Below, in pieces: positions 4,860 through 5,700 of a DNA stretch of 64,000 nt. The first letter of the stretch is position 1. Every line of letters begins with the position of its first letter. The notes beneath the pieces are model-generated. The model was not told the DNA's origin and ran no database searches. It saw nothing but the letters and a program-made list of their open reading frames with translations. The DNA comes from a virus, in IMG/VR virus record IMGVR_UViG_3300021961_005592, positions 1-64,000 of that record. The stretch is one strand, 5' to 3'. Position numbers and translations under genes: made by a program.

Positions 4860-5272
4860 ATTTCATGTAGATCGTTTCAGTCAGATGGAACCTACTACGG
4901 TTCCATCTAATCTCAAAACTTCATGTGAGTCTTATCCAGCCGAGACTTGGAAGTAGGTGTTTTCTGCTGTACAATGGGCTCTGACCTTTCCCAACCTACG
5001 TCGACATCAAACTATAGTGCATAAACTATAAAACGCATTTATAGCTTGTACACTATACTCTTATCCCTCGCTTCGTTCCTAGTGCTAAAGGGTTTTTATG
5101 TACAATGTGCAGTGTTTCGACAGCCAACATTCCATCTATATCAACCAGTAGCCCAATTTGTCTGATGGCTTCCGCACTCTGGTGCGTCGATCAATATGTT
5201 ACGTGTCCGGCTCTCACCCCGGTTTTTCCACAGCGGTATTACAATCTGGCCCGCCAACCTTATGTGTTGGAT
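4860..5272 (-). ncRNA. Candidate large structured non-coding RNA directly downstream of the GIY-YIG gene (family unknown; strand inferred from flanking genes)
   Basis: No credible ORF, visibly more GC-rich than flanking intergenic DNA. Stems at 4883-4908 (perfect 10 bp), 4928-4947, 4953-4958/4994-4999, 5013-5057 (long hairpin), 4975-4980/5150-5155 (long range), 5173-5186, 5207-5222, 5233-5254, 5254-5270. Confidence 0.55.
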
Positions 5273-5700
5273 TGTTTTGCCTGTTCTAGTAGTGCCTGTC
5301 GCAATTTATCTGAGCCGCCAACTCTACAATTAATAATTCCGTTATAATATTCGTCGCTCTCTAATACACGGCGGTCAAATTGCTCTCTTGCCTCTATGTA
5401 GGACATTTCTGCCTTTGATGTACAATAATAAAGTATTTGTCTTGTGAAGTTTTCTGGACCTAAGGCTGCAACATCTGCTTGTAGGCGTTCTGAAGAACCC
5501 CAATACTCGCGCCAGTCGCTTTCTACAGTGGATCGTCTTTTGAGTTTTTTGCCTTTTAATGGTGGTTTAGTACGTTTGAACTGTGCTAGTTTCTTGCCTA
5601 TGTACTTTTGTCCAGTAGTTAGATTTGTTATAAGGTAAACAAAGCCTATTTTGCCTTCAGGTATTTCATCTACTATAACATTACGGTAAGTCCACTGCAT
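5260..5700 (-). CDS. Small GIY-YIG family endonuclease (Seg-like, catalytic domain only)
   Basis: GFVYLITN...KYIGKK (GIY-YIG motif), YWGSS, EAREQ helix and YYN motif; 146 aa. Confidence 0.85.
   Translation of the reverse strand: MQWTYRNVIVDEIPEGKIGFVYLITNLTTGQKYIGKKLAQFKRTKPPLKGKKLKRRSTVESDWREYWGSSERLQADVAALGPENFTRQILYYCTSKAEMSYIEAREQFDRRVLESDEYYNGIINCRVGGSDKLRQALLEQAKQSNT

What the first reader, a model, noticed from the sequence alone, without database searches (positions are those of the whole stretch)
4860..5700. ~400-nt highly structured non-coding element attached to the 3' end of a minimal GIY-YIG nuclease gene
Seen: in an otherwise gene-dense genome, ~560 nt (4697-5259) carry no credible ORF. 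About 400 nt of this is GC-enriched and holds at least nine helices, including a perfect 10-bp hairpin (4883-4908), a long hairpin (5013-5057), a domain closed by GTAGGT/ACCTAC, and a long-range TGGGCT/AGCCCA pairing from inside that domain (possible pseudoknot). The nuclease stop codon lies in the loop of the first hairpin (CCAAC-ACATAAG-GTTGG). Known: the nuclease has only a catalytic domain plus a basic insert (KRTKPPLKGKKLKRR), without the C-terminal DNA-binding modules of I-TevI-type homing enzymes; TnpB guide RNAs also begin at the 3' end of their ORF. Inference, unresolved: (a) a nuclease-RNA ribonucleoprotein, possibly RNA-directed; (b) a ColE1 RNAII/T4 R-loop-type replication primer, since an AT-rich tract follows and gp46/47 are co-transcribed; (c) a new ribozyme or large phage ncRNA. 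I do not recognise it as a known RNA family.
Basis: partly seen in the sequence, partly recalled or inferred. Interest (0 to 1): 0.8.

Follow-up and report, generated by a model that had tools for sequence, protein, structure and literature searches.

The report
Twin-box phage RNA beside nuclease gene
The gene-free stretch behind a small DNA-cutting enzyme gene of this uncultured giant marine T4-like phage encodes a real, knotted non-coding RNA of about 530 bases that carries the same 7-letter word twice; it does not depend on the enzyme, and its job is still unknown.

Summary
The element is real. The ORF-free gap (window 4740-5270, minus strand) is conserved behind segE-like GIY-YIG genes in over 115 IMG/VR contigs. 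Covariation supports its fold strongly: 92.5% of cells pair, 36 pairs show compensatory changes, and 0 of 500 shuffles reach this.

The hairpin holding the stop codon and TGGGCT/AGCCCA are not conserved. Instead, CCAAC in the nuclease's last codons pairs about 140 nt downstream.

Rfam gives no hit. Sister phages carry Polynucleobacter-1 (RF01718) at the same site and share the 3' module. That module has two boxes, ACUC+word and AUCU+word, whose 7-nt words are identical and co-vary as direct repeats. No complement to the word lies in cis.

The RNA is not bound to the nuclease:
- Some loci have a PD-(D/E)XK nuclease in its place, or an extra gene in between.
- Cultured Polynucleobacter carry the RNA between a DUF6641 gene and a small tyrosine recombinase.
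- The closest isolate's nuclease has no RNA.

So the guide-RNP reading is not supported. My best guess, at low confidence, is that the RNA pairs with the template strand of its own gene (an R-loop).

Earlier agents of this scan reported the same twin-box RNA on other genomes.

The parts
5260..5700 (-). segE-like minimal GIY-YIG nuclease gene (146 aa). Its last codons (QSNT-stop) overlap the 5' strand of the RNA's closing helix.
   Evidence: Pfam PF19835, E = 7e-34, residues 3-123; translation.
5124..5270 (-). 5' domain of the RNA. It is closed by the long-range helix CCAAC (5266-5270) / GUUGG (5124-5128) and holds hairpins 5232-5255 and 5203-5231 and the branched stem 5139-5196.
   Evidence: the closing helix is 99.6% paired with 5 of 5 pairs compensatory; the inner helices also show compensatory changes.
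4953..5112 (-). Pseudoknotted core. Helix 5099-5112 with 4964-4973 crosses GUAGGU (4994-4999) / ACCUAC (4953-4958). It contains hairpin 5065-5092 with the conserved loop ACUAGGAACGAA, variable hairpin 5010-5062, and hairpin 4975-4993 with the loop AAAGGUCAGAG.
   Evidence: GUACA/UGUAC is 99.1% paired with 5 of 5 pairs compensatory. GUAGGU/ACCUAC and UGGG/CCCA are invariant, so they are pairable but untestable.
4909..4947 (-). Stem AGUCUC/GAGAUU, whose loop holds box 1.
   Evidence: 82% paired, 4 pairs with compensatory changes.
4920..4930 (-). Box 1: constant ACUC (4927-4930) plus the 7-nt word ACAUGAA (4920-4926).
4883..4908 (-). Hairpin H1 between the two boxes (10 bp, loop GUAGUA).
   Evidence: 97.9% paired.
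4862..4872 (-). Box 2: constant AUCU (4869-4872) plus the same 7-nt word ACAUGAA (4862-4868).
   Evidence: word positions co-vary only with box 1, at offset 58.
4827..4855 (-). Hairpin H2 followed by a U run (terminator-like). Bacterial relatives lack it.
   Evidence: Read from the sequence; the stem covaries among relatives; its absence in bacteria is seen.
4740..4826 (-). A/U-rich linker, then hairpin H3 (4760-4780) with the conserved loop GAGCGAUAGCGAA, then hairpin H4 (4740-4759).
   Evidence: a twin box followed by this loop motif was found in 191 of 336 loci, bacterial ones included; stems covary; linker 74% A+T against 56% in the RNA body.
4728..4734 (-). T4-type late-promoter-like ATAAATA for the downstream gene (CDS 3833-4696). 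It marks the end of the RNA element.
   Evidence: the only such motif on this strand in 4600-6000.

Best explanation
Shown: window 4740-5270 (minus strand) is the gene of an autonomous, heavily structured, pseudoknotted ncRNA of roughly 420-530 nt. It belongs to a wide 'twin-box' RNA group whose only catalogued piece is the Polynucleobacter-1 motif. The GIY-YIG gene is a frequent neighbour, not an obligate partner. It behaves like a free-standing, homing-type nuclease gene parked against a conserved RNA gene.

Inferred mechanism (low confidence): the RNA works through its two purine-rich 7-nt words, which must stay identical. Nothing in the RNA or its flanks is complementary to the word. The only complement guaranteed to co-vary is therefore the template DNA strand of the other box, or an antisense transcript. 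I propose that box 1 of the transcript hybridises to the template strand at box 2, next to the A/T-rich linker. This would nucleate a persistent R-loop that starts DNA synthesis or recombination at this locus. The word would act as a self-recognition barcode, and the ornate upstream fold would position it. Nearby DNA-cutting or DNA-joining enzymes (GIY-YIG, PD-(D/E)XK, tyrosine recombinase) might exploit or process that structure.
For: Reality and autonomy of the RNA:
- It is conserved in more than 115 contigs.
- Covariation is strong: 92.5% paired, 36 compensatory pairs, 0 of 500 shuffles.
- G-U pairs fix the strand.
- Bacterial copies sit between a divergently transcribed DUF6641 gene and a small tyrosine recombinase, with no nuclease.

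Twin boxes:
- Mutual information of word positions 352/354/356/358 peaks only at 410/412/414/416.
- 84 of 86 family RNAs anchored on the constant flanks alone have identical 7-mers.
- About 20 different words are shared by both boxes across phage and bacterial RNAs; 111 identical pairs are observed against 28 on permutation.
- No cis complement lies within -900 to +500.
- The word is not a genome-wide motif.

Compatible with an RNA:DNA hybrid:
- Words are 75% purine, and the linker after box 2 is 74% A+T against 56% in the RNA body.
Against:
- Known R-loop origins (T4 oriF/oriG, ColE1 RNA II; my knowledge) do not need a conserved 350-nt tertiary fold.
- Bacterial copies lie in chromosomes, where an origin is not obviously needed.
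- Identity of the two boxes would equally follow from one unidentified trans factor reading both.
- In about 220 T4-like loci only two (L293, L314) showed no nuclease nearby, which hints at a functional tie that I cannot explain.
- I found no support for an earlier agent's claim that small phages without replication genes carry this RNA.
Confidence: 0.3

Rival explanations
1. Scaffold, decoy or regulator RNA. The two identical words are docking sites for two copies of an unidentified trans factor (a protein, or an RNA encoded elsewhere). The RNA acts like other large ornate phage-associated RNAs and has no role on DNA.
For: The tertiary architecture is large and conserved, with invariant loops: ACUAGGAACGAA, AAAGGUCAGAG and GAGCGNNAGCGAA. 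It is found in phages and in genomic-island-like bacterial contexts. The two boxes share the word but sit in different structural settings.
Against: The word changes often while the neighbouring proteins do not track it. No complementary partner was found within the loci or in the 115-kb genome fragment. A protein reader would have to re-specify repeatedly.
Confidence: 0.27
2. Self-processing RNA (ribozyme). The boxes mark two equivalent cleavage or ligation sites, ACUC|word and AUCU|word, so that the H1-containing segment of about 58 nt is released, circularised or spliced out.
For: The core is pseudoknotted with A-rich joiners and invariant loops. The two sites have the same sequence on their 3' side and a pyrimidine-rich constant part on their 5' side.
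Against: No ribozyme family matches. No internal guide complementary to the word exists. The topology differs from group I, and there are no exons.
Confidence: 0.1
3. One reading: the RNA is the partner or guide of the GIY-YIG nuclease (an RNP).
For: A nuclease lies directly upstream in 96 of 112 Polynucleobacter-1-type loci and in every family-1 locus with enough upstream sequence. The RNA's first helix overlaps the nuclease stop codon. Where GIY-YIG is missing, a PD-(D/E)XK nuclease sits in its place.
Against: - The RNA occurs without GIY-YIG in bacteria and in L293.
- An extra gene separates the two in 7 loci.
- The closest isolate's nuclease has no RNA.
- Nucleases 94% identical sit next to unrelated RNA types.
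- No RNA-guided GIY-YIG enzyme is known to me.
Confidence: 0.07
4. Cis-acting untranslated region: a 3' UTR that stabilises or regulates the nuclease/gp46 operon mRNA, or a leader for the downstream late gene.
For: No promoter of its own was detected upstream. A terminator-like H2 follows box 2.
Against: Bacterial copies stand alone behind a divergently transcribed gene. The downstream gene has its own late promoter after the element. A 500-nt knotted fold is far beyond known UTR elements.
Confidence: 0.05

Closest known systems
Polynucleobacter-1 RNA motif (Rfam RF01718; Weinberg et al. 2010, PMC2864571)
   Same: It occupies the same genomic slot directly behind segE-like genes in sister phages (72-100 bits). 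Those RNAs continue into the same 3' module: twin boxes, H1 and the GAGCGNNAGCGAA hairpin. The 2010 supplement already noted the motif lies downstream of one gene family.
   Different: The window's RNA does not match the model even at E <= 10. Its 5' and core sequences are unalignable with Polynucleobacter-1-type RNAs (38% identity). The Rfam model covers only the first 141 nt or so and says nothing about twin boxes or function.
GOLLD and ROOL large ornate RNAs (my knowledge)
   Same: They are large, intricately folded, of unknown function, and carried by phages, prophages and some bacteria.
   Different: There is no sequence or model match. Neither is known to me to carry co-varying direct repeats or to sit beside a nuclease.
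ColE1 RNA II and T4 oriF/oriG R-loop primers (my knowledge)
   Same: In ColE1, an upstream RNA segment pairs with template DNA further downstream to fix a persistent hybrid. That would demand exactly the kind of direct-repeat identity seen here. An A/T-rich tract follows box 2.
   Different: No hybrid, RNase H site, antisense regulator or origin activity has been shown. Known primers lack a conserved knotted core.
OMEGA systems (TnpB/IscB with omega RNA)
   Same: A structured RNA abuts the nuclease ORF end.
   Different: The nuclease is GIY-YIG, not RuvC/HNH. There is no transposon end. The variable segment is internal and duplicated. The linkage is not obligate.
Free-standing Seg-type homing endonucleases of T4-like phages
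   Same: It has a GIY-YIG SegE-type catalytic domain. It sits beside a highly conserved gene. An unrelated nuclease family replaces it at the same site. A mosaic boundary lies at its 3' end.
   Different: No DNA-binding domain is present. The gene is nearly fixed rather than sporadic in this clade. Cleavage of a nuclease-free allele is untested.

Membership tests
Polynucleobacter-1 (RF01718) | Match to the Rfam covariance model at or above 37 bits | tested here: not met
   No hit at the gathering score or at E <= 10 on 4600-5800. Sister loci score 40-100 bits.
Polynucleobacter-1 (RF01718) | Lies downstream of the GOS11034/segE-like gene family | tested here: met
   A segE-like gene lies directly upstream. 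The context is described in the supplement of PMC2864571.
Twin-box RNA group (informal) | Two boxes, ACUC+word and AUCU+word, with an identical 7-nt word, 47-62 nt apart in the phage loci measured, flanking a hairpin | tested here: met
   Boxes at 4920-4930 and 4862-4872, with H1 at 4883-4908.
Twin-box RNA group (informal) | 3' hairpin with the loop GAGCGNNAGCGAA | tested here: met
   4760-4780. A twin box followed by this loop motif was found in 191 of 336 loci, with covarying stems.
Group I intron | Model match, the order P7-P3'-P8-P7', and flanking exons | tested here: not met
   No RF00028 hit. The hairpin lies between the 5' strand of the P7-like helix and the 3' strand of the P3-like helix, not after it. 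No interrupted ORF is present.
tmRNA / RNase P RNA | ARAGORN or Rfam match | tested here: not met
OMEGA / RNA-guided nuclease | Obligate linkage of RNA and nuclease, with a terminal variable guide | tested here: not met
   Each occurs without the other. The variable word is internal and duplicated.
R-loop replication primer | Persistent RNA:DNA hybrid that primes DNA synthesis | not testable with these tools
   Only indirect signs exist: direct-repeat covariation, purine-rich words and an A/T-rich linker.
Free-standing homing endonuclease | Sporadic presence, and cleavage of the nuclease-free allele | tested here: inconclusive
   The gene is nearly fixed in T4-like loci. It is replaced by PDDEXK_15 in 5 loci and is absent from the bacterial copies. 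Cleavage is untestable here.

The most novel reading that the evidence does not exclude
The RNA reads its own gene. The 7-nt word in box 1 of the transcript base-pairs with the template strand of box 2 and sets up a barcode-specific R-loop. That R-loop serves as a start site for DNA synthesis or recombination in giant T4-like phages and in Polynucleobacter islands. The adjacent nuclease or recombinase acts on that structure.
Probability: 0.2. Interest if true: 0.9.

Novelty: new variant of a known kind. Interest (0 to 1): 0.6.

Why it matters
This is one of the larger conserved, knotted RNAs with no assigned function. It is widespread in uncultured giant marine and freshwater T4-like phages and is also present in cultured Polynucleobacter strains. 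Only a 141-nt fragment of a sister type is catalogued. Two short words that must stay identical, with no complement in cis, form a kind of constraint I know from no described RNA class, and it points to a specific, testable interaction. The bacterial copies (strains MWH-HuK1, P. rarus MT-CBb6A5, JS-Fieb-80-E5, Latsch14-2) give an experimental handle that the uncultured phages lack.

Tried and rejected
- Rfam at the gathering score and at E <= 10, and ARAGORN, gave nothing for the window.
- blastn against about 50,000 GenBank phages gave no match.
- Group I intron, tmRNA and RNase P were rejected on models and topology.
- A GUCG/CGAC long-range pairing is unsupported. The pairing of loop GUCAG with CUGAC after H1 is 100% pairable but invariant, so it stays open.
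- A cis complement of the word: none within -900 to +500.
- The word as a promoter-like or genome-wide motif: only these two copies occur in the window. A third 11-mer copy at genome position 113735 lies inside a coding region and is taken as chance.
- The word as the complement of a tRNA anticodon loop fits ACAUGAA but not AGAUAAU and others, so it was rejected.
- The word as co-evolving with SegE or DUF6641 was rejected.
- No sigma-70 or late promoter for the RNA itself was found.
- The small Polynucleobacter contig L328 is not circular.
- Literature searches for Polynucleobacter-1, DUF6641 and segE+ncRNA returned only the 2010 catalogue paper.
- An earlier agent's claim that small phages without replication genes carry this RNA could not be tested with the loci I fetched.

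Full report
**Observation.** All genes here lie on the minus strand. The segE-like GIY-YIG gene is at 5260-5700 (Pfam PF19835, E = 7e-34). It follows gp47, gp46 and a 73-aa ORF. The next gene (3833-4696) starts behind a late-promoter-like ATAAATA at 4728-4734. No minus-strand ORF of 40 aa or more lies in 4697-5259. The gap is GC-enriched and folds better than shuffles (z = -3.8 on the minus strand, -3.0 on the plus strand).

**Conservation.** tblastn with the nuclease found 462 relatives in IMG/VR. blastn and nhmmer found the non-coding stretch directly downstream in most of the 80 loci kept. An exact 25-mer of the core retrieved 120 more loci. Every one with enough upstream sequence has gp46, the small ORF and segE in front. 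I extracted 91 distinct RNAs of 345-492 nt.

**Structure.** On the 91-sequence alignment A1, a 77-pair model is 92.5% paired. Shuffled controls give 85% and slid partners about 37%. There are 36 pairs and 542 cells with changes on both sides, and 0 of 500 shuffles reach this. Frequent G-U pairs fix the strand as minus.

In RNA numbering, window position = 5278 - p.
- Helix 8-12/150-154 closes a multi-helix 5' domain.
- Helix 166-179/305-314 crosses the invariant GUAGGU 279-284 / ACCUAC 320-325, which gives a pseudoknot.
- Hairpins 186-213 and 285-303 carry invariant loops.
- Hairpin 216-268 varies in length.
- Stem 331-336/364-369 presents box 1 in its loop.
- H1 spans 370-395.

The stop-codon hairpin is no better than shuffles. 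TGGGCT/AGCCCA is 73% paired with no compensation.

**Twin boxes.** ACUC+ACAUGAA (4920-4930) and AUCU+ACAUGAA (4862-4872) lie 58 nt apart.
- In family 1, the variable word positions 352/354/356/358 have their highest mutual information with 410/412/414/416 and with nothing else. It equals the full entropy at three positions and reaches 0.68 of 0.78 at the fourth.
- Anchored on the constant flanks only, 84 of 86 RNAs have identical 7-mers.
- Across all types, about 20 words are shared by both boxes, for example ACGUGAA, GCAUGAA, AGAUAAU, GGAUGAA, AGCGAAA and AUCAAAA.
- No complement of the word lies within -900 to +500, and the word is not a genome-wide motif.
- Words are 75% purine.

**Extent.** After box 2 come a terminator-like hairpin H2 (absent in bacteria) and an A/U-rich linker (74% A+T against 56% in the body). 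Next comes a hairpin whose loop GAGCGNNAGCGAA is conserved and whose stem covaries, then a further hairpin. The element therefore spans about 5270 to 4740.

**Known families.** Rfam gives nothing for the window. Sister loci that have a close nuclease but no blastn or nhmmer match to this RNA carry Polynucleobacter-1 (RF01718, 40-100 bits) right after the nuclease, and they continue into the same twin-box module. The 2010 supplement says the motif lies downstream of one gene family and was not found in purified phages. No later paper in the library mentions it.

**Linkage to the nuclease.** I analysed 120 loci found with a Polynucleobacter-1 17-mer; 112 of them had at least 600 nt upstream.
- 96 of the 112 have segE within 400 nt.
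- 7 have segE plus one inserted gene.
- 5 have a PDDEXK_15 nuclease instead.
- L293 has the RNA with no segE within 9 kb.
- Two were chance matches (L273, L301).
- L314 showed no nuclease in the roughly 1 kb of upstream sequence available, and its record was not held.

The nearest isolate, Methylophilales phage Melnitz (65% identical nuclease), has the gene elsewhere and gave no blastn match to the RNA. Nucleases at least 97% identical share the same word, but at 93-97% identity 35 of 206 pairs differ. L013 (this RNA type) and L045 (Polynucleobacter-1 type) have nucleases 94% identical over the first 125 residues. In that pair, nucleotide identity is 82% inside the ORF, 49% upstream and 38% in the RNA.

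**Bacterial copies.** The same 17-mer hit 33 places in genome contigs. I scanned 19 of them with Rfam, and 15 are Polynucleobacter-1 RNAs, among them four cultured Polynucleobacter strains. Two of the 15 look phage-derived: L350 has a segE-like gene directly upstream, and L335 carries a phage-type word beside a DUF6641 gene.
- All 12 upstream ORFs scanned with Pfam are divergently transcribed DUF6641 genes; a thirteenth (L344) gave no Pfam hit.
- In 7 loci a 188-192-aa tyrosine recombinase follows; the 6 scanned with Pfam match Phage_integrase.
- Twin boxes and the 3' hairpin are present in 11 of the 13 bacterial-type loci.
- DUF6641 proteins 47-55% identical share a word, while those 84-88% identical differ.

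The RNA is thus a stand-alone gene.

**Mechanism.** Two boxes that must be identical, with no complement in cis and no co-varying neighbour protein, point to a partner complementary to both. The template strand of the other box, or an antisense RNA, is the only partner certain to co-vary. From my own knowledge, ColE1 RNA II fixes its persistent hybrid in a comparable way. I therefore favour an R-loop that nucleates DNA synthesis or recombination, at about 0.3. A trans factor that docks twice is nearly as likely. Self-processing, a nuclease RNP and a UTR role rank lower. Nearly all of the roughly 220 T4-like loci carry a nuclease of one family or the other, and this remains unexplained.

**Earlier scan notes.** I reached the Polynucleobacter-1 link and the twin boxes before I consulted earlier notes (onwards). 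Those notes report the same RNA on many other genomes, and one proposes a replication origin. I treated them as leads.

**Limits.** Invariant helices cannot be tested by covariation. The types were compared through shared modules, not through one model.

Noticed in passing
L349:3626-5640 (also L357, L346, L347, L340, L330, L351): In Polynucleobacter and related bacteria the RNA sits in a recurrent three-part module. A DUF6641 gene is transcribed divergently, then comes the twin-box RNA, then, about 350-700 nt later, a tyrosine recombinase of only 188-192 aa that consists of the catalytic domain.
   Followed up: partly
L221:3963-4484 (also L217, L252, L254, L283): A PD-(D/E)XK endonuclease (PF24608) takes the exact place of the GIY-YIG gene between gp46/small ORF and the RNA.
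   Followed up: partly
L339, L340, L349 downstream of box 1: In bacterial RNAs the 3' half of box 1 can form a 4-bp mini-hairpin with the following U-rich run. It appears to covary (GAAA/UUUC against AAAA/UUUU). Box 2 has no such partner.
   Followed up: no
window 3833-4696 (-): The downstream 287-aa protein has a long Ala/Pro/Thr/Gln-rich low-complexity repeat, no Pfam hit, and a late promoter directly after the RNA element.
   Followed up: no
G000 (whole record): CheckV rates the 115-kb record as 32% complete, and relatives reach 236-345 kb. This phage is therefore probably a giant T4-like phage, not a phage of Melnitz size (141 kb).
   Followed up: no
window 4975-4993 and 4880-4884: The invariant loop GUCAG can pair with CUGAC just after H1. 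It is 100% pairable, and the two variants seen are wobble-compatible. This is a candidate second pseudoknot that covariation cannot test.
   Followed up: partly
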